In this document: piece by piece, positions 38-61,500 of the stretch
Layout: every line of letters starts with the position of its first letter
How positions within the stretch are numbered: the stretch's first letter is position 1
Source of the DNA: Amoebophrya sp. A120
Taxonomy: Eukaryota; Protista; Dinoflagellata
Assembly (NCBI GenBank): GCA_905178155.1
Contig: CAJINV010000020.1
Location: forward strand, 806,001 to 870,000
Direction: 5' to 3'
DNA: 64,000 bases
The notes under the pieces: generated by a model
Seen by the model: only the letters and a program-made list of their open reading frames with translations
Database searches by the model: none
Told to the model about the DNA's origin: nothing
Made by a program: the position numbers and the translations under genes

Positions 38-3000
38 ATGAACCAAAATTTCAACAACTTCAACCACAATGGCAATTTCCACAAAAATTTCCGAATGTCC
101 ACCACCTCCTCCGATGCCGCGGAGCAGGTGCACCTGTTGCAACAGAAGCCGAACCAAAACCTTGACCCGCACAGCCCCCCGTTCGTCGCACACCAGCAGT
201 CTTTGCCCATGCGGCAATCGCAGCCGTTCCGCCCGCCCCAAGGCCTGCCCCGTGCGGCTGGTCCGCGGGAAAGTTTCGGCGTGCCGTGCGAACATAGTGG
301 ACCGAGCCTGGGCAGCGGTCATGTGGGGGGACCCGGCAAGCAGGGCGGGGTGAATCAATCGCCGGCTAATGCGGATTTGATGAGTCCGCAGTTGGAACTC
401 GGTATGCGTATGCAGCAGGAGCAGCAGCAGCAGCAAGGTAAAGGCTTCCTCAATGGAGGTGGAGGACCTGTTACTAAGTGGAACTTTCTAGGAATGAGGA
501 AATTTTGAAAAAATTGCCCCCCCTTCGAATTCTCTTCCGAAAGCAGCAGCTCTTCGTAGCTGTGTTTGGCTGGCGTGGCGCGCCAGCATTTGTTTGCTGT
601 ATTCGAAAATGGAAGCGGGAAGCGACTGTGTCAGAGTTCGGACGCATTGCCGCGCAGTGAAATCACCAAAGCAGGCAGGCGGCTTTTCGGGTGCCACTCA
701 CCTCGATCGCCAACTAGCCATCGCCGGAGGCTCAGCACACACCTACAAAGCCGCGCTTCATCTGAATAACGGCCGCGATCTCTACATGTGCATCGCAGTG
801 AGAGCACCGCGCTAAGGTGGCAGGTCTTTGAGGTCTCTGGGCCTACTCTACCGAACAGCAGCTCGCCGGCAATCGCCTAGTGGGGCTTCCAACCCAAGGC
901 GGCAGCCCTGGAAGGGGCCAATGGGGTCGGGCGCGTGGCCTGGCCGGCTCGAGGAGTTGCAGAAACATTTGAAAAGAATGGCGGAGGACTACCGCGGCGC
1001 CCTCAAGTGCCTCGGCCGGGTTTTGGCGGGGTGCCCCAACAAAGGTCGCGCCCGAGGGCTCAGCCCCGCTCTGCTTTTCTTGGTGTTTCTTGTATGCTTC
1101 AAATAGAGATCTGCGCTTTCCGCTCGTGATTCAATTTCCGAGGAAAATGGCGAAGGGGGGGGTCGCGGGGGGGCCGGAGGGGGCCTCGAGAGGGCCCCCA
1201 CTGAAGGGGGCAAAAATCGCCCCCGTGCCGTCGTGATTCAATTTCCGAGGAAAATGGCGAAGAGGGGGGGGGAAGGCAAGGGGGAGGGGCCGGGGGGCCC
1301 TGAGTTTTCCTCGGAAATTGAATCGCGACGGTATGGCACCGCTTTTTGCCTTGTTTCGAGGCGAATCTGGGAATTGGCCTGCTTTGCCGGCCTTCCCGGG
1401 CTCCCTTTTTTGGGTAGCGAGCGCGGCAACAAAACACGCCCAAAGCGAGGCCAAAACCATCACCATAGCACCGCGATTCAATTTCCGAGGAAAATTTCGA
1501 GTCCGGTGCGAAATGCCCTCAAGTTGGGAGCGGTAGGACCAAAGCCGCGGCAGGTTGGTTCACGGTGGGAAGCTGTCGACGGCGTGGGATATTTAGCGCG
1601 GTTCGGTAAGGGGGTATACCTGCCCCGGTTTAGCCGTTTTATTTGTAGCGCATGGCGTCCATGAGTAGGAAGGCCCATGGCGCTTGAGGTTTTGGCTCAA
1701 TGGCTTTGAGAATGATGCGGGTGTGTGGAGGCGCCACCATTCGGAGAGCAAGGCGCTGTCTTTTAGGTGCAGCCGCGATAAAGCCCATTATATGTGAGCC
1801 ACGGATGGCTCTCCAGGCTCGGCGACCACAGTTGTCCACGGGGCTCTGCGAGCTCGTCTCGCGCAGCGGTATTCGCAAATGGGCCGGCACAGGGCCGCGA
1901 CCTGATATCTCCACCTGCCTACTTTCACCTGGGGACTGAATTTTTTCGAATTTTCCTCATTCCTAGAAACTTCCACTTAGTACCTGTGAACAACCAGAAT
2001 CTCAACAACAATCAGAACCAAAATGCATCAAACCGCAACCCGAAGAACAACGTGCTGAACGCGCAGCAGTTCAACCACAACAATAACTTGCAGTTGAGCG
2101 TGATGCCGTCGCCGGATTACGGATTTTATGGGCAATTTGACGGCCCACCTGGAGGTTTGAACGCCAACTTCAACAATCTTCGCATGCCGATGAATCCACC
2201 ACAAATTATGCCCCGTCCGGGGATGGGGAACAACAGCCACAATTTCTACAACAATCCAGGAGGTGGAATCAATCAACAGCAAAACCACTTTTCTGCTTCG
2301 CAGTTCTACAATCAGCCGAACGATATGAACCAGATCGTGCAGGGTCAGCATCCGCACCAGAATACGACGAACAGTGGGGAAAATAAGCCCAAAAAGCCAC
2401 AGAACCCGTGGATCGGCGGAGACATGGCGGTTTTGTGGACGGACAAGCCCGAGAAGAAAAAGAAGCACTGGCAGGAGGGGTTTCTCCGAATGCAAAACTT
2501 CAACACGTTGGAGCTTTTCAACTCGCAATTGCGGTTTCTGGAGGAGTTTGTGTTCGACGACAAGCATATCACAGGAAAATAAAGTGCTATCGTTAACGGA
2601 ATTTGTGATGCAGCAATGCATCACTATCACTCCACTGAGCGTGCCAGGATTTGTCTTGCATAGCATGCATATTGGGCTACATTTGTGATGCATGACTGCA
2701 ATCTGTGAATAAAACCGTTAACGTTATTGATACTTTTTCTTCGTGATAAAGCAGAAGGAATTGTGGGACAACGACGAGGAGATTTTCTATGGGAAAAAGC
2801 ACGCCATCCAGGTCCTCCCGACGGACGAGTCCGGGGGGTATTGCAAGGCGTACTACTTTTTCCGTGACCGGATACCCAAATACAAAACTACAGATTTGGT
2901 CGGGAACGAATGCAACATGGACTACCACCCCTTGCATTTACCCTTCGAGAACACGTGCAAGGAGCTGAAAGCCAAGCGGGAAAAGGATCGCGACGTGTAC

Positions 3001-36146: not shown

Positions 36147-37540
36147 GACCACGGCGCGTGATGTATGTAGAATTCATCCGAATTATAATTTTCAATCGAT
36201 GGTACTGCTGGTGCAATCGCAGCTGCAGTTGTGCCTCGTTGCTGTTACTCGCAGTCTGTCACAGTGAGTTCGTGTGGTTGTATAAAGAAGTAGCCAAAAT
36301 CTACTCACTCTCTGTATCAGTATCAACCCAAAAGTTGTATATTTTTTGTTTTTCCTGCAGAAGTAGAAAGAACGTGCGAAATAAAGTGGACGAAGCATCG
36401 CTGTATTCCACATCGTTGGAGATTGTTGTTGCAAGATGAACCGCGACTATGTTTGTACAAAGAACGTGCTAGTACTTCAGACGACTTGTTGCAGCTTGTT
36501 CCTGTTGTAGTTTTACGAAAAAAACTGTGTCGCATACGGACAATCATGAATACCCTTGCGCCTCTCGGCCTCGCCTCGTCGCGCGCAAGCGGTGTAGTCA
36601 CACCCACCTCGTATCTGTTGTTCTGTTCCATGTTAACTGGTGTCAAACTAGTACAACTAGAAGCTCTATATCATGGCTTTGTTTCGTCGTTTACCAAAGG
36701 ATAATCTCTACTTTCTGCAAACCAAGTCGTGAACCTCGTGGTCGTAATCGTGTATAATTGTGCTCGTATTTGTAGAGGGACAACGACAACCACAACGGTT
36801 CGCTTGTCGCCGGTCGTAACAATCGCGTATCGATGAGCCGTGTCTTGTTGCAACTGAGTGAACAAGTCGGACCTTTTTCGTACCATCGCTATCACTCATC
36901 GTTGCAGACAAATCTACTTGTTTTCCTCCTGTTCATAATCTGTTTTTCGTGTTTTTCATCATCATCATCGCTCGAGGCAGGCCGTGTCGACGTCGTCCTC
37001 CCAGATCGAGGGAGAGCCGAAATCTCGTCGCCCCTCGTCTGGAAATACAAAATCGACTCTGATATGCGTTTTCGGCAATCGACGGAATCGAAATTTAAGG
37101 CTAGCAATCGAAGTGCGGCGACCACGCCGCCGCCAAACTTTTTGCCGGACGTCGAGAAATGTACTTAAGTAAGTTAGTATATGTTGTCCTCAGACCGGTT
37201 TATGTATTTATCTTCGCTTCTGATTATCAGAAACAGAATCTCCACTTATCGAAATGGATATATCATCGCTAATGAAATGAATTTAAATTATGTCCTAGCG
37301 CTCGCCGGGGTGTCTTTTTTTCATACTTAGTTTCTTGTTTGTGGAACGACGGGTATTATACACACTATTAAGTAGAAAGTCATCAAAGTTGTATATTATT
37401 CGTGCCCAGAATTGTGCATGATGAACTTCATCGCAAGAAGCAGGCCTCCATGAGCAAAACCTATACGAGTCGTTCATCTGGTACGTTGATGACACCAGTT
37501 CTTGCACGATTGTAAGTAGAGCCCAAGTAGCAGTCTTTCT

Positions 37541-40500
37541 ATGTTGGGGGCGCCGAAGATGCCGTCGCAACTGCAGCTGAGGTTTGTCTACTTCTTATTC
37601 GTCAGTGCTATAATTTTGCACGAGGAAAGTAGACGGTGGAGCTACGATCTGCTGTCGTTGCAGCAGGATTCGGGAAATTATAACGCCTCGACGGTGTCCG
37701 TGTCGTCCCACCTCGTGCTGGGTCTGATGCAGCAAGATCATGCTGCCGTCCGCTTGCACAGAAAGAACAGACTGGAGGATGTAGACGAAGAGGAAAACGA
37801 AAACGTAAACGAGTTGTATCAAGAAAATCAGGGGATCATTCGGCAGACGAGTTCTTACAACGAGTACGATTCCGGTGGAGATCGTGACGAAGTCGACGAA
37901 GAAGTCGACGAAGAACTGGCGGCAGAGCGGGCTTTGTTCGTCCAAACGAAGGAGAATGAAAGTCCAGACGACGACGATGAGGCACCAGAGCAGATACAGC
38001 TTGTTCCGGATGAAGTAGATCCGCCGGAAAGTTTTGGCGAGAAGGAGCGTCGTGAGGAAGATGATCTTCTGGCAGGAGAACATGAACAAGACGACTTCGA
38101 CCCCGAGGACGACGCGCAAGACGAAAACGCGGCGGAAAAAGGAGAAGATGAAGACCATATCCTCTGCAAAAGTATCGTACTCGTAGTAATTGCAGCTGTG
38201 CATGACCCGAACACGCATGACAAACTGCATTTTTCTTCTTGAAAAAATTTGTAAAATGCAATTTCTACTAGAACTAGTGCGCTAGTTTTGCAACGCATAG
38301 ACCAATTTGAAGATCAGTTCGATCCGTTGCTTGACAGAATTCCGTCGTATGAGCTGGACGAAAACGGAGAGGAGGATCCGTCCTTTCTGGATCGCGAGGA
38401 GAACCTGATAAGAGATCATGTTGAAGAACCAACAACAACATCTCCGATAGCCGCGATAGGATCCTCGTACTATAACAGAAGTGCTACCAGCATGCTTCAT
38501 CCGGCGCGGCCCATCAGCTATGATATCACCGGAGCCGGTGCGATCCGTTCCTCCGGAAGAAATTCGGCCGACGATTATGATCCAGATGATGACTCCCTGC
38601 GCGACTATGTGTCGCCGTACAATCCGGAGATATATGGAGCTCTCGAGCGTGGCACTGTGGTCAGCTATTGCGTGATACATGCTAGACTTGTCATGCAAAA
38701 TCACCATTCAAGCCATGCTATGCTACTGCTACTTCACATGATGACTAATTTCCAAAGTAGGGCTAAACAGCGTGGAAATAATCTGTGCGGAATTTGTAAT
38801 GCGAGAGGTGCAACAAGCTGAAGGTGTAGGTGAATCAGAAGCTCCCTCCTATCACGTAAGAACAGCTGAGTATGTTTATGTATCGCTTGAGAACCCCATA
38901 AGATAGACGCCCCGTTTGTCGACGAGGACGGCAATAATGCTACCCCGGTGCGTATCAACTGCAAAAATTAAAATGTCTGGGTCTGGAAACTTGTGATGCT
39001 GGATGGCGATGATTGAGCATACTCCTGAGTGCAACCAAGCATGACAAATTTTTCGGATACTTTCTCATGCGTAGTGCGTATGAGAGACTGCGCTTTTGCA
39101 TGACAAAAGAAGGCTCCTTTTCCTGGTCATGCAATACAGATTTTACAGGAATCCAAGACACGCAATACAGGCTCTACTCTTCGCTCTTCCAGAGGACCCA
39201 GACATATTTGCAGTGGATAGTGCAAGAGGAACTTCTTGCGTCCGGCGATGAGCAAGGAGAACAAAAAATACGCGAACGCGGCTTCCACACCGTGATCGGA
39301 CCGGACCGGTCCTTCAAGCGCATTTCCTCGACCCACCTGCGCAATTCCGAATTGCTGCAGGCCATCCACGGGAAGACCCTACAGGGGGACAGCTTGCTAG
39401 AGGCCATCAACAGCTTGGTGCCGGATGTTGAGGATGATTCTCGTGTGGAGCAGGTGGAGTACGACGAAGGCGGCGAGGATGATGACAACAACGACGAGAA
39501 ACGCAATTCTGAGCACCCTTCTCGACGAGTTGAAGATGTGTTCACCAGCGGAACTAATAGCACCGGATCATTCGTGGAGACCGCAGCCACCGCCCAGGGG
39601 GGCAACGGGAATAGAATGCACCTGACGGAAGAAGATCTTCACGCTGCGCTCGATAGCAACGTGGAGGACGAGGACGGGTACGCGAAGTGGAGTCGGGCCG
39701 TCCGAAAGCTGCTTTTCGAGCAGGAGAACGGCGAGGAAAAACAAAAACAACATGCTCGCGTCAGACGAGATATAATGCAGCGCGGCGATCATCAAGAGCA
39801 TGCTCATGGCGGTACTACTGGCCAGGAGCTGGAGCACGAGGACGAGCTCGAGCGTTCACACAATCATGATTTTCTGGATCATGATGTTTCAGCTTCTGCT
39901 GGTCGATCATCTATTGGTGCAACAACTTCTTTCCTTGCCGGCACTTCTACTTCTCCTTGGCCACCACCTCACCAAAAGACTGCCGCAATGAAGATCTTCC
40001 GAGCAGCTGGGGAGGACGCTGACAGCGAAAAGCAAGAAGACCTGATGAACAAGGAGGCGGGGAAGGTGGAACACGACGATGAAGACTACGGATACTTTGA
40101 CGTAAACTACGACCCAGGAAATGAAGAAATGCAACTACGAAGTACTACTTTCACCAATGATTCTGCAGCCACGTTCCTTACCGGCACTTCGAATGACCAT
40201 CGTGACCAGCATTCCTCTGACTTTTTGCAGCAACGCGGCTCTCTGATCCTCACAAAATCGTGGTCCGTGGGCGGGAGTTCGAATCGAGAAAACTGCCGCA
40301 CCGTGAATGGCGTCCCGCCTTTGCGAATGAACTACGTGCCCCGACTATCCAAGAAAAAAACGTTGTTAGTGTAAATTTGTGATGCGCAACATGCAAGACG
40401 ATTGCGTCTGTCATGCTTGGCATGCGTCGCAGGGTCCACTAAAGGGCGTTTTCACGTACTATCTGCGCATGACAGGTTTTGCTGTCATGCCAGACAGATT

Positions 40501-43500
40501 TGCAATGCTGTTCCTCCAAAAAAGTTACACCTACAGTGTTTTTTTCTTGGATACAGACACGGGCCAACTTCTTTCAAAGGAGTGTCTATTCCGGCGATGG
40601 ACGAAATTCATTCCTGCTACCAACCGCTGCTGGACCCGCCGAAGTGCGGGGGCCAGTGGATCCGGCATTATCCAGCCCTGGACTACTGGCTGGGGGACAT
40701 TTGCACTCTTCCTTTGGCGTGGAACCAAGTTTGGACGGGCTTCAACCCCCAGAACCTCTGGCCCTGGGGAAGCAATTACCAGTGCCCCAACAAGAGGGTG
40801 TGCCACACCAAGCCCATAGCGCGCTGGATGTACAACCGATGGAGGCCCGCGTGCGTCGCCGCTCAGAAATGGGTGAGGAAGATGCATTATTTGCAAAAAA
40901 ATACGTATTTAAAAAATCAAAACCCGTGGCTGAAAATCACGGGATACCTCCCCAGCAAGATGGAGTGGAAGTGCCGCTTTCTCTGCGAGGTGCTCCCGGA
41001 GTGCACAATGTACTCCTACACGACACCAGCGGCCTTTTCCGGAGCCGGGTACCATTGCTGGATCAAGTGGGCGGCGCTGCAGGGCACCAAGCTCACCCGA
41101 AAGCCGCACGTCACGTCCGCGATCTGCAAGCCCCGCCTGTGCAAGCACCAGGGCTTCACGTGGAACGCGCACAGCCAGCGGTGCGAGCGGGAGCGCGTGT
41201 GTCGCGGAATGTGGAAGCCCTGGACCAAGTGCCGCTGTTCCGCCGCCAACACTATCCGGGTGTCAGGATCGAAATCGACAACGAAATCGAAAAAAAAATT
41301 GTAATGCGTAAAATGGAGGGCACGCATGGCCTGTATTGGGGAGCAGGCAAATGGGACCGCTTGCAAGCCTGATTAGGGGAAGGCGATGCGCTGCCAGAGT
41401 AGCACGACAGGAGCAGTCTCCTTTGCCCAAACAACGTCACAGACTGGAGTTTGGTGCTCCCGAAATTCGTCGCGCGCTACTTGAAATAAACTGAGGCTCC
41501 AAAGAACCGACTGGTATCGATTTTATGCGTGGCAAATGATTTCCACTTTGTCGACTTCGATCCTGACGTCCCCATAAACACCGGGCAGGGCGTACAGTTT
41601 CAGGAGTGGGTGAAATTTGCCTCGTCCCCGAAGCACGCGTTCAATGGCGCCAGCTGCGACAAAGCGCGGAAGATACGGAAGTGCAAGCGCCAGCACCCCT
41701 GCCGGGTCGACTGCAAGGGCGAGTGGCGGTTGCCGAGCCCCGGAGCCATGCGCGCAGACTGCGGCAAGAAAACCTGCGCCAACCGCTACCGAAAGCGGTG
41801 GCACGTGATCCGGGCCGCCACGCACGGGGTATCCACTGCAAATATGTCTGGGTCTGGAAGAAAGCAAGTCTGTCATGCTTGGGCTTGGCTGATAAGACAG
41901 AAAAGTCTACTGTCATGCTTGGTGCGCTACAGTGCCACTTGTTTGCCATGCAATAAAAAAGCCATTTGTCATGCGGTTCACGCTAGACATAGCCGCTCAG
42001 AAACTTGTAATGCGCGGCCCCCTAATAAGTACAGGTTGTGGTTGCGTATTTAGCATTACAACTTTCCAGGAGATCCAGACATATTTGCAATGCATACGGG
42101 GGCCGGGAGTGCCACTCCAACGGCCGCATCGTCCACGCGGGGGACCACAGCCGCGTCACCTTCAAGTGCGACGAGACGAAATTCAGGACCCAGCCGTGCG
42201 AGCACAACCGCGACTGCTATGGAGTTCTCAAACGTTACATTCTCAACTGTTACATGAATTTATGGCGGCGTCAACAATCTCACCACTATACTATATCAAA
42301 AAAAAAATATATCGTTTCTATTTCATCTCTTGGCGCGCCACGTTTTCCCACGCTTCTCCAAAATGGCCAGGATTTGTTGTGCTCAAGTGAGCACTTTTTG
42401 AACTGAGATTGACGACCTCGGGGGACGTCCTCCAAAAAGTGAGTACATTATCGAAAAAAACTAGGCTCGAAGCTCACTAGCATCGGTGCTAAATTTGGAA
42501 GGATAGCAGAAAAAGCGCGCTTTTTGAGGCTTGCGTGTGTGCAAAGAGGAGGAAGAATTAGCTAGCTCAAGGCAGCTAGCTCAAAGTCGCTACTGTTGCA
42601 TATCTATTTTAAAGTGGTAGCTCAAAATAGGTGCTTTCAGATACATAAATACGATATGAAATTTTTTTTGATATACTATAGTGGTGAGATTGTTGACGCC
42701 GCCATAGAATTTGTCATGCAAAACTACCATCATCATCCACAAGATGAAGCTGCTGCGCATGACAAATTTGCGGAGGGCCAAACAGCACCGAAATCTGCGC
42801 GGGATTTGTAATGCAATCTTTGCAATCTTCCCCCTTTTGCTTTTGCCATTCTTGCATTACAGATTCATGTAACAGTTGAGCATGTAACGTTTGAGAACGC
42901 CATAACTGCAAGGGGCACTTTGTGGACCCGGAGGACAAGGCGGAGCAGTGCCGAGCGCACAATTGTATCGCAGGAACAAAAGTGTTACAGTAGTTGTTAC
43001 ACATTTTTGTGTTGCAAGCCCAGCACCATGACAGACACAGACAACCTTTGTCATGCCGGATAAGCATAGGTGGAGCCTTGTTTCATAAATGTTTTCCCGT
43101 AGGATTTCTGCATTGCAAGTTTTCTCTCTCAAGCAGAGAAATTTGATGTGTTGCTGCATTGACAAGAACAAATCAATGTGTAAGTAACTGTAACACTTTT
43201 TTCTTGGGATAAATTGCGGAAAAAACTACTACCATAAGGTGTACAAAGTGATCCAGACGCGCTATTGCAAGGAAAAATCTCCCCTCCCTATATCGAACAC
43301 GAAATTTGTGATGCTGTATTTGAGTACACAAATTGTATTGCTAGAAAGCCAAGAGCCGCAGTTGTGGCCTCGTCGTTTATTGCAGGCAATTTGTCATGCT
43401 GATTCCCGCTTCCAGGTGCCTCCTGTCATGCTGAAGATGCCAGGCTTTCCCATGCCACCAAGCGCCAGCACTACAGTCCGCATCTTCTGCCTTCTAGCAT

Positions 43501-46500
43501 GACAAAGCTGATTTGTGGCCACAAATCTGCATCACAGCTATCCGCTTTGATATGGGCGGGAGGGGGGATTTCTCTTTTTGATACGCGCCATGGGACGGGA
43601 AAATCCTGCGACTACCTGGATGGGCACAAGAGCCAAAGAGAAACCGAGTGCGCGCACCAGAACCTGCCGAGCTGCGAATGCCAGGGCGGGTGGGGCGAGT
43701 GGTCCGAGTGCAGGTGCTCCAGGCTGAACAACGGCCACGGCGTGAAGCAGCGGGAGTTATCAAAAAGAAACATCCCCCCTCCCCATATCAAAACGGAAAC
43801 CTGTGATGCAGATTTGTTGTCACAAATCAGCTTTGTCATGCTACACGGGAAAAGATGCGGACTGTAGTGCTGGGTGGCGTTGGGAAGCCTTGCATCTTCA
43901 GCATGATAGGAGGCAGCTGAGAGTGGGAAACAGCATGAGAAATTGCCTGCAAACGGGGCCACGACTGCGGCTCTTGGCCTTCTAGCATGACAAGTCGATT
44001 TGTGACCTCAAATACAGCATCACAAATTTCGTTTTCGATATGGGGAGGGGGGATTTTTCCTTTTGATAGGAGTGGCGGAAGGCGGCCGGCAGTCCGAAAC
44101 AGGACCAGCACGGCAACAGCTGCGAACAGGGAACAGAGTATTAAATGCAATAAAATTACATATCGATCTGGGTGGTCTGGAAACTTGTGCTGCTAAAGTG
44201 CGGACTGGATGACCGATGATGCAGCCGCCAAGCATGGCAACGAACTGTCCAGCACGCTTTCTCACGCGCAGGCCGCATGACTAGTACAAGCTGCGTTTTT
44301 GTATGACCAAACAATAGGCTGCGTACTTCTGTTGGTCAACATGCGCTACGATACAGAAACAGATTTCGACTTCGCTAGATCATTGTAAGACCAGCATATA
44401 CGAAGTTCGAACTTTCTAGACCCAGATCGAAGTCGATATTTTCATTGCATACAGAGCTAGCCACCTGTCCTTCCATGCCCGCGAGCAAGAACTGCGACGT
44501 GGACTGCGATATCAACTGTAAAAATGTCTGGGTCTGGAAGAATCCAACTTGTCATGCTGATTTTGGATTCTAAAAAAATCTGTATTGCATGAGTGCCAAA
44601 GGAAATGCACTTTTTGCTACGCTGAGAAGGCATTTGTCATGCGGAATACGCATCAAGAAGCCCTCAAAAAATCTGTATTGCTAGGGTATGCATCACAGAC
44701 ATCATGGCTCATGCAAAACGTGCACGACAAGTGTCAGAATCTTCCAGACCCAGACACTTTTGCATTTGATATGCGAGGGGCACTGGGTGACGCCGGCGCC
44801 CGACGACCGGTGCCAGACGAAGGTCTGCGTATCCTGAGTAAAAACGTACCCACACCAGAGTCAGGATGGGGATTTTGCAACACAAACCTAGGAGTTTTGT
44901 GAGTCACGCATGACAAGTTGCACTCTGCAGTGTAGTGCAGGATAGCAAGTGCAGCCGCGTCACAGATTCATCTGCTCATCCTGTTCACAGCATCACAAAT
45001 TCCAAAACACGATTGGAAATGGCTCTCATGGGGATGCGCATTACAAGTCTTCCTGTCTTTGCAAATCTGCATTACAACTCTGGCGGAACATGTTGGTAAT
45101 GGTTGGTGGTTGGCAAAAAAGTTGGCTGTTGGCGATAAGTTGGTTTTTGGCAAAAGAGTATGGCAAGTGGCCGGGAGATGATGGTGATGGCACTTTGGTG
45201 TCCGCCTGACCTACCCCCCCTGCGTGTCAAGCCATCTGCGGCCTGGGGCAGAGGGGGGGGCAAAGTGTGCTGCAATTCCTTTAGCATTACAACTCTGGCG
45301 TGGGGACGTTTTTACTCAGGATACTGAGGTCGCGAGACGTACTCCCGCGTGTTCCACGTGACCCGGGAGCAGGCAAACGACGGGACGCCGTGCAATCACG
45401 AACACGGCGATACGGAGCCCCTCGAGTGCAACCACCCGCACTGTCTATGCATTGCAAAAATATCGTACTCGTATAAATGCATTACAAATTAAAATTATTT
45501 ACTCAGCATGAGAAAGAAAATTTGCAATGCGGATTTAACCTGAGAAAAAAATTTGTAAGGCATGACTGCGATTACTACGAGTGCGATATTTTTGCAGTTC
45601 ATGCTGTCCGGTGGACTGCGATTTCTACTGGGAGAAAACGGAGTGCAAGAAGGAGTGCGGGGAGGAGACGTACCAGCTGATCTACCGCATTCGCGAACAC
45701 GCCGCGTACGGTGGTCGCGAGTGTGAGTTCGCGGATGGGCACCCTTCACCTGAGACCCACATATGCATTGCAAAAGTATCGTATTCGTATAATTGCATCA
45801 CAAATTTCCTCAGCATGAGAAATGAAATTTGTAATGCGGATTTAGCTTGAGAACAAGATTTGTAATGCATGTTTGCAATTACAACTACGAGTACGATACT
45901 TTTGCACAGGATACCACAGCTGCGAACACGACCCCTGCCCGATCCCGTGCCAGGGGCACTGGACGCCGGCCCTCGACGAGCCTCCGCCGGTCGGTTCCTG
46001 TGTGAAGTCGTGCGGCCCCGAAGTCTACCACCGCATCTACAAACACACTCGGGAGGCGAAGTATGGCGGCGAGGAGTGCGATTACGACGACGGGTATGTG
46101 AGCAAACTGGCGCGCGACTGCGGCAACCCCGCCTGCACCGACTGCAAGCTCTCCGAGTGGGCCAAGCGCGGGCTCTGCTCCGTGACATGCTGCCCCCCGC
46201 CGCGCACGCATTGTATGCATTGCAAAATTACTTACCGTAGTAGTGTTGTATGGGAATTTTTGCATGAGAAGTTTTATTCCCAAAAAGAAAAGTGGAACTT
46301 GTCATGCAGATTTAGACGCAGGCGCAGATCTGTCATGCATGACTACAATTACTAGTGCGGTATTTATTTTGCGCGGGATGCATTGCGGGGTGCAGCGCTT
46401 GACCCGCCACGTGGTCCGGGAAGCGGAGGACGTATGAAAGCCTCAGAATGGAAATCCTGAAAGTGGAAATGATAATGATTTGTGATGCATGAAATGCGAC

Positions 46501-49500
46501 GCAAAAAACACTGTATTGCAGAGGACGCAATGGAGGCCGACTATTGTCCTGCTAGGGGCGAAGAATTGGAGTGCTGCTTAGCACGACAGAAGGGCACCCC
46601 TTTGCCTTAAGCTGCATGACAGACTTGCTTTAGGTGCCCGGAAAATTTGTCATGCGCCGACTACAAATGCCACTTCAACTGGACTCATTTTTTGGCATTA
46701 GAAATTATATCCACTTGTTTGACTTGAGGATTTCCAACCTGAGGCTTTCATAGGACGGCGGGCGCGTGTGCGACGAGTTCCGCCTGACCAAGGAAATGGC
46801 ATGCGAAAACATGCCGGCCTGCGTATCCTATGTAAAAACGTCCCCACACCACAGTCAGGATGAGGATTTTGCAACACAAGCCTAGGAGTTTTGTGAGTCA
46901 CGCATGACAAGCTGCACTATGTAGTGTAATGCAGGTTAGCAAGTGCAGCTGCATCACAGATTCATCTGCTCATCCTGTTCACAGCATCACAAATTCCAAA
47001 GCACGACTGTAAATGGCTCTCATGGGGATGCGCATTGCAAGTCTTCCTGTCTTTGCAAATCTGCATTACAACTCTGGTGTGAGTACGTTTTTACTCAGGA
47101 TACTGCGAGGACCCGGGGCCGGTGACCCCGGGCCCGAACCCGGTGGACGAGTGCGCGTTGTCCGAGTGGGTGCCCGTCAAGGACTGCTCCGTCAGTTGCT
47201 GCGAAGACGGTAGTTCCAGTTGCGGACGACAACTATTTGAGCGCAGCGAGGTTCTTATGGGACGCTGATTCTCAAACGTTACAGTCTGAACTGCTGTGGT
47301 GTTACAAGATTGGCGACGCGATGAACAAATTGCCATCGGCCACACCAGGATCTGGATCAAGCCACTTCGCATGACAAGAAATTCTGGTAGGGCTAGTTCA
47401 CAGCATCGATTTGTACTTATGCGAAAGGTGCAAACTTTTTTCTACTTTCAGTTTCACTTACGCGATTCTTGCATGTTGTAACTGCTGAGAGAGTAAAAAT
47501 AACGTTTGAGAATCCCATAGAGTTTTCCGAGAAGCAGGCGGGAAAGACCTGCCCGCACGCGCGGCTGCGAGAGGAGCGCGAATGCGTGGACATGCCGGGT
47601 TGTCCGGCAACGACGCCCCAGCTCCCGGTGACCATCTCGAGCACCCGATTTTCCACGGTCACGCCTCATTGGTCCACCAGCCACCCGGCCACGACCACGC
47701 CCGTACAGACCGGTTCCACCACACGGGAGCCTCCCTCGACCGCCACCAGCACGGGGCCGCAACCGGAGCCGCTCCCGCCCCCTCTCACAAGCACCAACGG
47801 CCCTGAGCCGCTACCGCCCCCGAAAACGACCCCGAGTACCAAGTGGCACCCCGAGACGACGCGCCCCCACACCACGGGCGCAACGCGGCCGCCGGACCCA
47901 AATACCTGGGCGCCGCCCACCACGCAGCCGGGGCCACATCCGACCGCCCCATACACACCGGCGCCCACAGTCTACAGCTCCACGCGGGCCACGACGACCA
48001 TCCCCGCGGCGCACACTTCAATGGAACCGACAAAGCCGCCGGTATTGTGATTGATCATGGTGTCTAATATAATTATTTGGATGTGGTGTTACAAGTACAA
48101 CAGAATTCTCGAGTCATTGTCATTGCTTGCATGTCGCAAGCACGACAAGCGCGATTTAGTGTCGTTTTCTCGTTTGATGCCCTGCTTCGTCAAGCGTCTT
48201 CTTCATGTCTGTCCCGTCTCAGCTTGTCACGGTCGTGAAGATGTTGGCTTCTGCACGAGCACGCGACTTCAACTGCATAAAGGCCTGGTACTGGTAGGAG
48301 GTGAAGACGCATTTTACTTCTTAGCACTTGCATCTATCAAAATCAAGGTCAAACGAACAAGAAGAAATTATTATGAATATATTTCAGGAAACGAGCGGCC
48401 TGGCGACTACCGCGCAGAGCACGGGGCAGAGCACTCCGGCAGAGACGACGGCCTTAACGTCGAGCACGACGCACACCGTGACCCGGACTGCCCCGGAGCA
48501 AGCGACCACGCGGTCCGCGGGCCCGACCACCTTCGCGTCTGTGACCTCCAGCACGGTCCCAACGTCGACTACTCTCCTTCCCGGGAGCACGCCGCCGGAA
48601 ACGCGGTCAACCACCGCCAGCAAGCACCTGACGACCCGCCCCCCGGAGACCGTGTTCACCCCGACGCAACCCCCGGAGGCGACGTCCAGTTTCGACCCGG
48701 GCGCAAGCACCGTGAGTTCGACACGAGCAACGACCTCAGTAGCGACCAAGACCGGGATTGAATATGCAGCGTTTCAAATGTGTCTGGGTCTGGAAAGGTG
48801 GAACCTGTATTAATGCGAGTCTTGCATTAGTGTACTGGAGATAAATTTATCTGTGTTGCATGAGCAGCAAACGAGCAGCTTCCCTTGTTATGCACAAAGG
48901 CAATTTGTAATGCGCTTTAGGCAGGAGCAGAGAGCGTCTCGAAAGTTTGTCATGCTTTCCTCCCATTGCAAGCATAGCGTTGCTGCAATAATGCGCACTA
49001 CAGGATCACAGGTTTTCGGAGGAGCCAGACATATTTGCAGTCGATATTGAAGACGTCAGCACGACTCCACCTCCCACGACGGGTATTACGTTTGCGCCGA
49101 CCTCAGTGCCGGAGGCTTCGATCAGCAGTACGCTGGTGGACAGCACTGAAATTGTCACTACGCCAGCGTCCACCACTCGAACTTCGACTTTTTCCTCACA
49201 AGCGTCAACCCAAGGCACCAGCACACTGACGGGCAGTACCAGCGCCGCCCCGGAGAGAACCACCAGCTACGTTCTTCCGGCCACAACGACCCACCGGGCG
49301 CCCACCACCTCGCATAGTGGAAATTTCACCGAGCAGGTGACCACTCCAGTATGGTCCACGCTGGGGCCAAGTTCGACGACGATTTCCGACTTCTGGCCGG
49401 GGGTGATTACTTCCGAGTCAATATCGACGACCAGGCTGCCGGAAGCCACTACGGTTGCACAGTCGACTACCGGGCAAAGTGCGACCACACGGACCGCGGC

Positions 49501-55500: not shown

Positions 55501-58500
55501 TACAAGTTGCATGGAAAATTTGATCGACCGGAGGACTGAAGCTTTTCATGCTGAGTGTTGTGATGTTGTGGTGGTCGGGCACTATCTAAAGGTTGTGTCA
55601 TGCATTCATCTTGTTGGCGTGTACGGAGTGCATTTCGTGTGGATAACGACTGGGGCGACCCCTGCGTCAACAACCTACACGCCGATACACTCAACCTCGT
55701 CGCCCGCGCCGAGTACAGGAACGGGCCCGGGTATGGCGAGTAGAAAAAAGTTCGTCGTCGTCACAAATGACACGCAGCTTCGTTTTGCTTTTGCATGAGA
55801 TGGAGATTGACAATTTTTTTTGCATTGCAGCCAAAATGAACTAGACAGACCGAAAAGTCCGGATCAGATCATGTGACTGTGATGCATTCGCTCGGTGCAT
55901 GATAAGATGACTGTGTTGCAAGTTGTAGACTGCCGATGGGAGGTGATCGCGACGAAGTTTTTTTGTTTGATATCTTGCTCGGGGGAAGAGAATCACAACA
56001 GCACGACGATGAGGTCGACGACATCTTCGGTGGAGACGATTCCGACGACAGTAATATCCACCACTACAGTGTTCTCGTCTACTTTCCTTTCGTCCAGCAC
56101 GAGATCTACTACGAGCAGTTCGGATCCTTTCGCCAACCAGACACCGAACTCGACGCGGGTGCCGGCAACGAAAACCGACGCAACCACGAGGTACTCCAGC
56201 ACCACTTTACCGCTAAAAGACGATACGACCGCGCCCTTCAGATCGAGCATGTTCACAACACCGCCCCCGCCGGTGACGGTCACGCTAACGCCGAACTCGA
56301 CGAGCTTGCCCTCGACAAAAGCGCCTGAAACGACGCAATTCTCGAGCACAAGGGATCCATCGGTAGAAACGACCGCGCCTTTCAGGTCGAGCCCTAGCAC
56401 GACGCCAGGGGGAGCTACAGTAACGCACCAAACGCCAAATTCGACCAGTTTACCGTCGACAAAACCGCCCCTAACCACGAAGTACGCGAGTACGACGGTG
56501 CCGGTGGAGGGAACTTATGCAATGCAAAAGCATCGTACTAGTATAAATCGCAATACAAATTTTATCAGGAGGAAAAATGGTGTTTGTAATGCTGATTTGG
56601 CTAAGAAACAAGATTTGTCATGGATAAATGCAACTGCTACGAGTGCGATACTTTTGCACTGGATAGAACTACAGCGCCTTTCCGATCGAGCACGGGCACG
56701 TTCTCGTCGAGCCAATCACAAACTATCACGCTGACGCCCAATTCGACGAGCTTGCCGTCGACAAAACTTCCGGTGACGACAAAACATTCGAGCACCAGCA
56801 CGGGAAGTAGTCCCACAGACGACCACTCGACTGCCAGATCGAGCACTAGCACGTCCACGACGACGTCGTTGAGTGTTACACTGACGCCGAATTCGACAAC
56901 GATAGGCACAACGCATATTTTTACGACTGGAAATACGACCACGACGACCACAACGTGTATGACAAGGGAAGCAAGTAGTCGGATGAAACTCAAAGTCAAA
57001 CAACTTTTCCTTTTTGTGACTTCCCTATGCTTCTTGGGGGAGAAACTATGACTATTTTGATTGCGGGTGCTGGTTTTGCGCCTCCTGCATATGCGCATGA
57101 GAGAGCAGATACGACGAGTGCTGCCAGATTATAGTTCGATCAATCGCTGTGCTGGCCTCACGCTTTCGATAGCATTGTCATCTGTACGTAGAAGGAGCAA
57201 GTGCGCGATCAGTGAATTTGCAGCTGCGTCTGTTCCGGAGGCGCAATAGACTCTGCCTGCCCGTGTTTTAGTTTTACGGGCAGTTGTTAGTTGTGTTTGT
57301 CATTGAGTTGACATCTCATTTGCTTTGCATACCCCCGACCACGACCACGACGACGACATCGACTACAACCACGACATCGTCGACGACCTCCACCGTTACT
57401 GCGGAAATCACTAGCACCAGTACAACTTCTGCCAGTGGCACTAGTACTTCAAGTGGTACGACAACAGCATCAGCAACGGCTTCCACCAGCAGTACAACAA
57501 CTTCTAGTACCTCAACGTCAACGTCTTCTTCTTCGGAAGAAATCGGGGGGAGCAGTACGCCGCACAAAACCAGCAGTAGTACCGCGACAGTGTCGACATC
57601 ATCAACTACAGGGACCGGAACGGGGACGGAGAGTAGCACTGCGAGTAGCACAACCACAACTGGTACAACTAGCTCGACGACTTCATCTAGTAGTACCACA
57701 ACCACAACCGTTACAACTAGCTCGACGACTTCATCTAGTACTAGCACGACTACAACTGTTACAACTAGCTCGACGACTTCATCTAGGAGCACCACAACCA
57801 CAACCGTTACAACTAGCTCGACGACTTCATCTAGTAGTAGCACGACCACAACTGTTACAACTAGCGCTACGTCAACTAGTACCGAGCCGGAATTTCTGTC
57901 GACGACAACGACCACCAAGCCGGAATTTCTGTCTACGAGCACAACAGAGACGGCGTCAACCACAACCACCTACACCTCAGCTGCTACTTCATCCACCACG
58001 ACCACCGGCGGCACGCCGGTTGCTATATTAGAGACCACTACGTCAACAGAAACTCACACTGGCGCTGTGACAACTTCAACTGTTTCCTCTTCTACAATCA
58101 CTGAGACCACGCCGTCGGAGCAGGAGACCACTAGTAGCACTTTGTCGAGCACAAGCTCAAGCACAGCTTCGAGTACAACTAGCACTTCTTCGTCTTCAAG
58201 AACATCGTCGTCGACAAGCACGACATCTCGTACCACAACGGAAACGGAAAGTACAACAACCGGAACCGCTTCGCCGACTTCTAGTTCTAGTGGTGCGCAG
58301 ACCTCGGCGTCGACTTCTTCTGCAACTTCGACAAAAAGGGAAACCACCACGGCGACGGGTACTACGACAACGGAAACCACCACGACCTCGAGCAGTTCAA
58401 CTGCGACGGAAACGGTGACTGACAGTACCACAACAGAAGCAGAGAAAACCACCACGGGCACTGGTACTACGACAACGGAAACCACCACGACCTCGAGCAG

Positions 58501-61500
58501 TTCAACTGCGACGGAAACGGTGACTGACAGTACCACAACAGAAGCAGATAAAACCACCACGGGCACTGGTACGATAACGAGTAGCACTAGCAGTACTACA
58601 TCACCAACATCTGCACCAGTTTCATCCAGTTTGTCAAGTTCTAGTAGTGCACTATCGACTTCGACGAGCTCGGAAACTGCTACAGCCAGCGAGACGGAAA
58701 CTGTGAGCAGTAGAAGCAGCTCTACTACGACATCTTCAACGTCGACGGAGCAAGTGTCTACAACTACATCCACAAAGGCGTTGCCTGAGACAAGTCTGCC
58801 CAGCACTCCCAGCACCCCGCAGACCCATACTTGGAGTGGCGTCGAGACCAGCACGGTGACTAGCACTACAAGCTCGAGCACCGGCACGGCTTCAACGAGC
58901 ACAGGCACTACCTTGCCGCCATTTCCCACCATGCCTACCAGGCCAAGCACTCCCAGCACCCCGCAGACGCATACTTGGAGCGGCGTCGAGACGGTGACTA
59001 GCACAAGTTCCAGCACGACCGAGACCACGGCGACAACTTCTACAAGAACTTCAACTACATCCACACCAGCTGCTACTTCTACCACGACCACAGGCGGCAC
59101 GCCGGTTGCTATCTTGGAAAGCACTACAACAACTTCGGGCACAAGCACCGCGGTCCCCGTAATAACCATACCCGTTATACCGACTCTCCCCAGCACTCAC
59201 AGCACCCCGCAGACGCATACTTGGAGCGGCGTCGAGACTTCTACGGCGACTAGCAGCACAGAGACCTCCACCTCAGTTGCTACTTCTACCACGACAGGCG
59301 GCACGCCGGTTGCTATACTAGAAAGCACTAGTACGACAACGGCGGGCACGAGCACCGCGGTCCCCGTGATAACCATACCCGTCATCCCGACTCTCCCAAG
59401 CACGCACAGCACTCCGCAGACGCACACTTGGAGCGGGGTCGAGACGGTGACTAGCACTACAAGTTCGAGCACAGAACCGGCTTCAACAAGCACAGGCACT
59501 ACCTTGCCGCCGTTTCCCACCCTGCCTACTAGGCCAAGCACTGGCACCACCCCGCACACGCACACGTGGAGCGGCGTCGAGACGGTGACTAGCACGGAGA
59601 GTGCTTCAACAAGCACAGACACTACCTTTCCTCCGTTTCCCACGATGCCTACCAGGCCGAGCACTCACAGCACCCCGCAGTCGCATACTTGGAGCGAGGC
59701 CGAGACAGTGACCAGCACAAGAAGCTCGAGCGCACCGACAACCAGCACGACCACGAGCGAGGCGAAAACGAGCCGCGAGCTGTTGGAATCCAGTTTGCGG
59801 CCGACGACGTCAATGTTTGTGACGACAACGGGCTCGGCGCTGCCCTTTGTTGGTACGTCGACGACCACTACGGAAAAAGCGGTGCTTCCCGGCGGGCAGA
59901 CGACCAGCACGGAGGAGCCCTGGTCTTGGAGCAGTAGCACAACTTCTAGCACATCTAGTGGGGAGGAATCAACATCGACTTCGAGCACGAAAAGCAGGAC
60001 CGGGACCACGACTGGCACAGGTACCGCTCCCGACACGGGTCCGCCTGGGCAAACTTCGCTGTCTAGTAGAAGTGCCACTACGTCGTCTACTAGTAGTTCT
60101 AGTACATCGAGTTCTACCACAGAAAAAGGCGTGCTTCCCGGCGGGCAGACAACGGCCACGACCGGCCCCTGGTCCTCGCCGGGCAGCAGTACAACTACGA
60201 CCGAAAGTGGCGATGTTGTTGAGTCGTCTTCAACTAAAACCGGAACAAGGCCAAGTGGTGGCCTCGGAACATCCTCGCTACCTCCTACTCCCTCATCGAC
60301 AAGGACAACGTCCACGTCAACAACTGAAAAAGGCGTGCTTTCGGGAGGGCAGACAACTGAAACTACAGCGCCGTGGTCGTGGAGCAGCACGACGACCTCC
60401 GAAAGTGGCGGCGTGGTTCAGTCATCAAGTACGAGTGCTGGAACTACGAGTGGTGGCCCCGAGCAGAGGACCACGACGTCGCTACCACCTCCTGCTTCTT
60501 CCACATCCACAGTATCAACAGCCTCAACTACTGAAAAGGGCGTGCTTATGGATCTGTCAGGATCGAAATCGTCAAAGTTGAAATGATTTGTCATGCATAA
60601 AATGCAGCCCACAAAGTGTCTGTCTTGCAGAGTAGGCAAGTGAGGCAGATTGTAAGCCTGTCGAGGGGTAGAAACTGAGGCGCTAAAGTAGCACGACAAA
60701 AGGCGTCTTCCTTACCCAAACAGCATGACAAACTGGATATCGGTTCTACCCAAATTTGCCATGCGCCACTTAGAAACTGGATTTCAAGTGGCATCCATTT
60801 TATGCATGACAAACTATTTCAACTTTGACGATTTCAAACCTGACGCTTCCATAGTGCTTTCCGGAGGGCGGACAACGGCGACGACAGAGCCGTGGTTGTG
60901 GAGCAGCACGACTATGACAGTGCACAACTCCCCCTCCCCCTCCTTTGTAATGCAAAATCCCAAATCCAGTTGCAGTTGGTGCCTTGTGGCACTGTTTGCA
61001 TTACAAATTCCGGAAGCCCAAACAGTAGTACAATAAATGTAATGCAAAATCCCAAATCCAGTTGGATTGGTGCCTTGTGGCACTGTTTGCATTACAAATT
61101 CCGGAAGCCCAAACAGTTACAGTACTACAATCGGGACGTGGGGTTGTCATGCACAGGCCCCACGTTTGTTCGTTGGTGGTTGTGATGGTGCTACTCATGC
61201 AATACAAATGAGGGGGAGGGGGAGTTGTGCACTCTGATAACGACGACCAGCACCGCAGTAGTAGCGGGGTCTTCCTCGACGACCACGGAAAAAGGTGGTG
61301 GTGGCGGTGCTCCTACTTCTACTACCCCCAGTAGCACCGCAACAACCCGGCCCCGGCCCGTAACAACGACGCAGACGGGAGGGGGAATTATTATACCGGA
61401 AACCGGGCTGCCAACGACGTCGAGACGGCCATTTACTTCGCGCCCGAGGCCGCAGACAGGTTCGAGCACGACGAAGCCACTGTTGTTTCCTATCATCAGT

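What the first reader, a model, noticed from the sequence alone, without database searches (positions are those of the whole stretch)
42218..42904. Introner nested inside an introner (twintron-like)
Seen: a 446-bp element with a perfect 30-nt TIR and GAATT duplication lies at the inner edge of the host's left TIR; removing it leaves a 236-bp host, near the size of its family D relatives. The DR is made even in non-coding sequence, so it is a true target-site duplication. It also moves the host's TTTGTCATGC motif 451 nt from the 5' end.
Basis: seen in the sequence. Interest (0 to 1): 0.8.

Follow-up and report, generated by a model that had tools for sequence, protein, structure and literature searches.

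The report
Young mini-transposon inside a mobile intron
A rare and apparently young 446-base DNA transposon has jumped into an older transposon-derived intron of a gene of what is likely the marine parasite Amoebophrya; the nesting is real, but the whole block is likely cut out of the RNA in one piece, so a two-step twin intron is possible and not shown.

Summary
The nesting is real. Inner element 42261-42706 (30-nt perfect TIR, GAATT on both sides) sits in a 236-nt host introner (ACTGC on both sides), the 7th of 19 TA..TA elements in one gene. Removing 18 of them plus 5 nt each opens a 1486-codon frame; removing only the inner gives a stop. Assembled contigs of runs that hold this DNA show host relatives without the insert. 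They also show a second inner copy with the same ends and its own duplication GTAGT, plus a third junction. So the inner is a mobile unit of about 2-3 copies and the 5-nt repeat is a true target-site duplication. 'Twintron' is not shown: no RNA run covered the locus. The host's ends and predicted 42-bp stem are intact, and the inner lacks the motif found in 32 of 32 other elements, so one-step removal is my best reading (0.5); optional inner-first splicing is close behind (0.33). Nested introners are known in Micromonas; I found none described for Amoebophrya in the text I could read. The scan's look-ups gave no look-alike DNA, only two related notes on other genomes.

The parts
42213..42217 (+). 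Host target-site duplication, left copy (ACTGC), end of upstream exon
42218..42259 (+). Host introner left TIR (42 nt, begins TATGG, internal 15-nt tandem repeat)
42256..42260 (+). Inner target-site duplication, left copy (GAATT), overlapping the inner end of the host TIR
42261..42706 (.). Inner 446-nt non-coding TIR element (TAT..ATA ends), about 2-3 near-identical copies in the genome
42261..42305 (+). Inner left TIR (30 nt perfect, 45 nt at 98%)
42662..42706 (-). Inner right TIR
42707..42711 (+). Inner target-site duplication, right copy (GAATT)
42712..42862 (+). Host body with family motifs TGTCATGC / GCATGACA / TGTAATGC / GCATTACA
42863..42904 (-). Host right TIR
42905..42909 (+). Host target-site duplication, right copy (ACTGC)
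37500..48050 (+). Host gene (approximate ends): Cys-rich protein with a weak PAN_4 match, interrupted by 19 TA..TA elements; the nested block is the 7th

Best explanation
A 446-nt non-coding element with terminal inverted repeats sits, with a 5-nt target-site duplication, inside a 236-nt member of an abundant introner family, and the 692-nt block is likely removed from the RNA in one step at the host's own intact ends, with the inner element as a passenger. Shown: the nesting; a second inner copy with identical ends and a different 5-nt duplication; host relatives without the insert; the need to remove exactly 692 nt to keep the gene's frame. Inferred: insertion by a cut-and-paste DDE transposase supplied in trans (staggered 5-nt cut, then gap repair); recent age (near-identical copies, best TIR of 34 elements); inner later than host; pairing of the host's TIRs in the pre-mRNA, which would bring the two exon ends together whatever is looped out. 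Not tested: any splicing product.
For: Second site: contigs of 3799 and 5699 nt leave the window sequence exactly at the element's ends and share GTAGT (X1 and X2 both ends, X3 right end). The interior 42322-42706 is one contig with 0 differences at depth 99.1, against 42-45 for single-copy contigs of X1. Empty host relatives: joint 42255->42707 skipping 451 nt in 4 contigs of X1, flagged 'between: not known', and 4 listed rows joining 42249-42254 to 42707-42709 with 2-9 letters between (15 of 225 joints and 12 of 71 such rows were shown). Host ends run into unlike flanks in 100 and 67 contigs. Frame: 18 elements + 5 nt removed gives 1486 open codons; inner-only removal stops at codon 1171, no removal at 1166; removing 0, 3, 4, 6 or 7 nt instead of 5 at 14 sites gives 5-10 stops in every frame. 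Predicted outer stem: mean pair probability 0.91 with the insert, 0.885 without. The family motif is in 32 of 32 other elements (106 hits in 9201 nt, 5.1 expected in 446 nt) and absent from the inner.
Against: The inner has the same junction features as every other element: TAT..ATA ends, 5-nt repeat, and a stronger predicted stem (mean 0.965). A cut one base before its TAT gives TT..AT ends, and all 9 predominant A120 splice pairs in Farhat Table S4 have T as second base (the link is my inference). A motif-poor 1511-nt element (472-1982, 1 hit) sits in a frame that opens on its removal, so the motif is probably not needed for splicing and its absence does not make the inner unspliceable. The motif was defined after seeing the data. 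No contig spanning the window's own inner junctions was laid.
Confidence: 0.5

Rival explanations
1. Optional twin intron (twintron in the wide sense): the inner element is a splicing substrate like the other TA..TA elements and is often removed first, since both its ends are transcribed before the host's 3' end; the host can also be removed whole.
For: Same ends, 5-nt repeat and stem as the exon-inserted elements (exact 5-nt repeat at 28 of 35). The motif-poor element 472-1982 lies in a coding frame. Inner-first removal would restore a normal 236-nt family member.
Against: No RNA evidence either way. 2 of the 3 known inner junction sites are at introner-type motifs and none is shown to be in an exon. 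The inner lacks the family motif.
Confidence: 0.33
2. Obligatory twintron: the host's motif must lie about 44 nt from the 5' end (or the intron must be short), so the inner has to be removed first.
For: The motif is displaced by 451 nt. A forward-strand motif hit lies 33-49 nt from the left end in many other elements. 31 of 35 catalogued elements are 142-327 nt long.
Against: The motif occurs on both strands, several elements have no forward hit near the 5' end (38158, 44830, 50062), and 18 of 39 close same-strand pairs are 31-32 nt apart, about three helical turns, which fits a DNA-binding site better than an RNA signal. A 1511-nt element is tolerated in a coding frame.
Confidence: 0.08
3. 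The insertion is very recent, not fixed in the culture, or damaging: the block is poorly spliced and the otherwise intact gene has just been knocked down.
For: Depth suggests 2.0-2.4 interior copies while three sites are known. The window's own junctions were not among the 4, 5 and 15 contigs laid from X1-X3.
Against: The window's own letter is also missing from X1 contigs at 42818 and 43956 (other depth equals all depth), so short contigs inside repeats are being lost generally. The window-type left arm is present with 0 differences. The predicted host stem is unharmed.
Confidence: 0.07
4. Three-level nest: the inner is itself a 380-nt element (42294-42673, TACTA on both sides) inserted in the loop of a 61-nt hairpin element. 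This is about origin and does not exclude the readings above.
For: TACTA direct repeat around TATCAAAA..TTTTGATA ends, TIR 13 of 20-22; it accounts for the single mismatch of the 45-nt TIR.
Against: The second copy has G at 42291, which makes the TIR perfect there and removes the direct repeat. No joint and no loose end at 42294 or 42673 in X1-X3 at 80% likeness.
Confidence: 0.05

Closest known systems
Introner elements (IEs) of Amoebophrya strain A120 (Farhat et al. 2021, PMC7789003; abstract, sections 10, 11, 12, 16, passages and supplement text searches read)
   Same: Non-canonical introns with terminal inverted repeats starting TAT, 3-5 nt direct repeats at the boundaries, about 240 nt mean length, no transposase, identical pairs reported.
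   Different: One element lies inside another; 'nested' has 0 hits in the main text and in the supplement text (supplementary figures are images and were not seen). TIRs here are 42-45 nt against the 8-20 nt scored there. A fresh 5-nt duplication at two unrelated sites points to DNA transposition, which that paper doubted for lack of a transposase in A120.
Nested or merged introner elements of Micromonas CCMP1545 (Verhelst et al. 2013, PMC3879977; passages)
   Same: An introner inserted inside another introner; several cases reported.
   Different: The inner and outer elements here have long TIRs, a 5-nt duplication and no GT-AG option (0 of 18 elements can be cut as GT-AG); the inner is not of the host's family.
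Stwintrons of Hypoxylaceae fungi and Euglena plastid twintrons (Fekete et al. 2022, PMC9024468; passages)
   Same: One removable-looking unit inside another, with terminal symmetry.
   Different: There the internal intron usually breaks a sequence needed to excise the external one and the intermediate RNA is shown. Here the host's ends are whole and no intermediate was seen.
IS3EU/GingerRoot DNA transposons (PMC10045372; passages)
   Same: TA..TA termini with TIRs. An A120 introner family with integrase-like ORFs between TIRs is reported in PMC12130899 (passages).
   Different: Duplication is 5 nt here, usually 6 nt there; no transposase was found to place the element.
BogoMITEs nested in longer IESs of Blepharisma (PMC9942856; passages)
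   Same: Young MITE copies nested in older removable elements, read as a sign of recent spread.
   Different: IESs are cut out of DNA; Amoebophrya IEs are reported as RNA-level introns.

Membership tests
Amoebophrya introner element (Farhat 2021) | Inverted repeat joining the two ends, starting TAT (A120 type) | tested here: met
   host and inner
Amoebophrya introner element (Farhat 2021) | 3-5 nt direct repeat at the boundaries | tested here: met
   ACTGC, GAATT; GTAGT at second inner site
Amoebophrya introner element (Farhat 2021) | Repeated in the genome | tested here: met
   host: 2 relatives in the window, 100 and 67 contigs with other flanks; inner: about 2-3 copies
Amoebophrya introner element (Farhat 2021) | Removed from RNA (RNA-seq-supported intron) | tested here: inconclusive
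   RNA runs laid 0, 0, 1 reads; host removal inferred from frame; inner untested
Amoebophrya introner element (Farhat 2021) | Organism is Amoebophrya | tested here: inconclusive
   inferred from element features only; no close protein relative found
Twintron / stwintron (strict sense) | Internal intron interrupts a sequence needed to excise the external one | tested here: inconclusive
   host ends, stem and motif sequence are whole; the needed signals are unknown in this organism
Twintron / stwintron (strict sense) | Intermediate RNA lacking only the internal intron | not testable with these tools
   no RNA run covered the locus
MITE (non-autonomous TIR DNA transposon) | Short, TIRs, target-site duplication differing between sites | tested here: met
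   446 nt; GAATT vs GTAGT at identical ends
MITE (non-autonomous TIR DNA transposon) | No coding capacity | tested here: met
   longest stop-free stretch 53 codons in six frames
MITE (non-autonomous TIR DNA transposon) | High copy number (usual for MITE families; recalled) | tested here: not met
   only 4, 5 and 15 contigs laid at 80% in X1-X3; about 2-3 copies
MITE (non-autonomous TIR DNA transposon) | Autonomous partner with the same ends | not testable with these tools
   no whole genome held; no transposase family among 21 of 65 window ORFs scanned
IS3EU/GingerRoot | TA..TA termini | tested here: met
IS3EU/GingerRoot | Target-site duplication usually 6 bp | tested here: not met
   exact 5 nt at 28 of 35 elements, 6 nt at 0 of 35
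IS3EU/GingerRoot | Related DDE transposase | not testable with these tools
   element is non-coding; no genome to search

The most novel reading that the evidence does not exclude
This is an obligatory twintron made of two non-canonical, hairpin-ended introners in an organism that seems to lack U1 snRNA: the inner, a still-active TA..TA transposon drawn to introner motifs, must be spliced out first to bring the host's motif back to its working distance, which would identify that motif as the missing splicing signal.
Probability: 0.08. Interest if true: 0.75.

Novelty: new member of a known kind. Interest (0 to 1): 0.33.

Why it matters
How Amoebophrya-type non-canonical introns are recognised and how they spread are both open questions (PMC7789003, section 16). 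This locus speaks to spread: one element at two unrelated sites, one of them intronic, has a different exact 5-nt duplication at each, as a transposase cut would leave. It also gives a ready test of recognition: one RT-PCR tells whether hairpin ends plus the 5-nt repeat suffice for removal (inner spliced) or whether the family motif is needed. Nesting itself is expected when such elements fill 16% of the window and is known from Micromonas.

Tried and rejected
RNA test: no RNA holder listed. Raw RNA runs X5-X7 laid 0, 0 and 1 reads on 40500-44500 and the guessed-RNA contig run X8 laid 0 on the inner: no test. No whole genome is held. I looked for an annotated spliced protein as indirect RNA evidence, using exon 40561-41250: none at E<=0.001 among 404-2000 aa proteins; 5 distant hits of 32-37% identity and no self hit among representatives. 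Inner TIR pattern: 0 matches in metagenome contigs; 1 match in viral contigs, an isolated 18-mer with no further likeness, taken as chance. Pfam on 21 of 65 window ORFs gave families for 1 (NHL repeat), no transposase. Misassembly as the source of the nest: rejected, as it would not make a 5-nt duplication and the same ends recur at another site. Whether the second inner copy is in an exon could not be told from 30-nt flanks. Exact targeting of the motif: the two motif-adjacent junctions differ in register by about 4 nt, so at most a loose preference. Pair 44830-47102 is two copies of one family, not one element. Rows dropped from the 38-row catalogue before counting: 5 long or weak pairs (37482, 45073, 46038, 49600, 60196) and 42294-42673; added by eye: 44139-44451, 47256-47519 and later 38953-39219. 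Paper searches for a prior description: introner+Amoebophrya, introner+nested+twintron (27), introner+dinoflagellate+nested+non-canonical intron (40, 0 papers), Amoebophrya+non-canonical introns+splicing+inverted repeat (43), introner+nested (44, 30 of 47 listed), MITE+nested insertion etc. (62). Roy et al. 2023 (Curr Biol) was seen only in reference lists.

Full report
Observation. All coordinates hold. The inner element 42261-42706 is 446 nt with a 30-nt perfect TIR that extends to 45 nt at 98%. GAATT flanks it on both sides. The host 42218-42904 has a 42-nt TIR and ACTGC on both sides; without the inner and one GAATT it is 236 nt. Such TIR + 5-nt repeat pairs do not arise in shuffled windows: 11 real against 0 in 30 shuffles at 18/20 or better. 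The host's motif is shifted by 451 nt, from position 44 to 495.

Setting. The window holds at least 35 elements with TA[TC]..TA-type ends, covering 16% of it; 28 of 35 have an exact 5-nt flanking repeat and none a 6-nt one. They match the introner elements described for Amoebophrya A120: IR starting TAT, 3-5 nt direct repeats, about 240 nt (PMC7789003 sections 10-11). The organism is inferred from this match only; protein searches found no close relative. The nest is the 7th of 19 elements in one gene. Removing 18 of them with 5 nt each gives 1486 open codons up to the 19th, whose flanking repeat is degenerate. Other removal lengths at 14 sites give 5-10 stops in every frame. Keeping the block, or removing only the inner, gives a stop at codon 1166 or 1171. 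So, if the gene works, all 692 nt must leave the RNA.

Host family. The rebuilt host aligns end to end with two uninterrupted relatives in the window. In run X1 (kind not on record; it covers intron and exon at one depth, so I read it as DNA) host ends run into unlike flanks in 100 and 67 contigs. Four contigs show the joint 42255->42707, skipping 451 nt (flagged 'between: not known'), and further rows show the same join with 2-9 letters between.

Inner element. At 80% likeness only 4, 5 and 15 contigs of X1, X2 and X3 lay on it. Two long single-copy contigs leave the window sequence exactly at the element's ends and share GTAGT: a second insertion with its own 5-nt duplication. A 61-nt contig in X2, with a matching loose end in X3, shows a third junction that abuts CTGTATTGC. 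That 9-mer occurs 7 times in the window, 5 in elements catalogued at that point and 2 in the element 38953-39219 added later, so this may be a second nesting. The interior is one contig with 0 differences at about twice single-copy depth (99.1 against 42-45 in X1; 58.7 against 27-29 in X2). The second copy differs only in its left arm (C>G at 42291, small insertions at 42307-42321). The inner has the best TIR of 34 elements (30/30) and no frame longer than 53 codons. It is therefore a mobile, non-coding, low-copy and probably young unit. Its first 14 nt match the host's right end at 11 positions, which suggests the same transposase; the bodies are unrelated. Caveat: the window's own junctions were not among the contigs laid, but the window's own letters are also missing at 42818 and 43956, so this blank says little.

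Removal from RNA. Not tested: RNA runs laid 0, 0 and 1 reads. Folding predicts both stems, the inner stacked on the outer (z -16.9), and the outer stem is as stable with the insert as without (0.91 against 0.885). The insert sits just past the host stem, and the duplication keeps the motif sequence whole. The inner lacks the motif found in 32 of 32 other elements (motif chosen after seeing the data). These points favour one-step removal. Against it: the inner has the same ends as all others; a cut one base before TAT would give it a T at +2 like all 9 predominant A120 splice pairs (my inference); and a motif-poor 1511-nt element lies in an open coding frame. The motif's presence on both strands and its 31-32 nt spacing (18 of 39 close pairs) suggest a DNA-binding site, which argues against obligatory stepwise splicing. 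Odds: one step 0.5, optional inner-first 0.33, obligatory 0.08, unfixed or damaging 0.07.

Comparison. Host and inner fit Amoebophrya introner anatomy; the splicing criterion is inferred for the host and open for the inner. Introners nested in introners are reported in Micromonas (PMC3879977) and MITEs nested in ciliate IESs in Blepharisma (PMC9942856). Strict twintrons need an interrupted splicing element and an intermediate (PMC9024468); neither is shown. TA..TA ends resemble IS3EU/GingerRoot, whose duplication is usually 6 bp (PMC10045372), so it works like them at most. 'Nested' had 0 hits in PMC7789003 main text and supplement text, PMC12130899, PMC9860276 and PMC11282704; only passages of the last three were read, and the supplementary figures of PMC7789003 could not be seen and may show such cases. 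PMC12768974 (passages) was not relevant.

Verdict. A real, well-supported nested insertion and a clean case of target-site duplication by a recently active element; an expected kind of event; a useful natural test of an unknown splicing mechanism; not yet a twintron. Interest 0.33.

Noticed in passing
window, 32 catalogued elements: The motif TG[TC][ACG]ATGC/TGTATTGC occurs on both strands in all 32 elements and 0 times in 3755 nt of exon; 18 of 39 close same-strand pairs are 31-32 nt apart, about three helical turns, as for a DNA-binding protein such as the transposase.
   Followed up: partly
window 472-1982: 1511-nt element with TAC..GTA ends, 44-nt TIR and CCTGT repeat, nearly motif-free, with internal repeats at 1126-1500; its removal opens the coding frame. 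Possible decayed larger transposon; its 185-codon ORF 1107-1664 gave no Pfam match.
   Followed up: partly
window 44830-45323: Copy of the 46824-47102 family (93% over 254 nt) with about 200 extra nt bounded by a direct repeat of about 17 nt, without TIR or 5-nt duplication: a second, different kind of insertion in an introner.
   Followed up: partly
window 37500-48050: One gene with 19 TA..TA elements, encoding about 1650 aa: acidic N-terminal part, weak PAN_4 match (E 0.004), many Cys-Trp repeats that look thrombospondin-like by eye (recalled; no Pfam match), and a Pro/Thr-rich tail; possibly a surface adhesin.
   Followed up: partly
window 42294-42673: A 380-nt introner-like piece flanked by TACTA inside the inner element; no sign of independent mobility.
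   Followed up: yes
all elements: TA..TA termini with 5-nt duplications resemble IS3EU/GingerRoot (6 bp); the A120 splice pairs of Table S4 all fit a cut one base before the terminal T.
   Followed up: partly
window 57272-60586: 1104-codon Thr/Ser-rich repetitive ORF with 48-nt and longer tandem units, mucin-like by composition.
   Followed up: no
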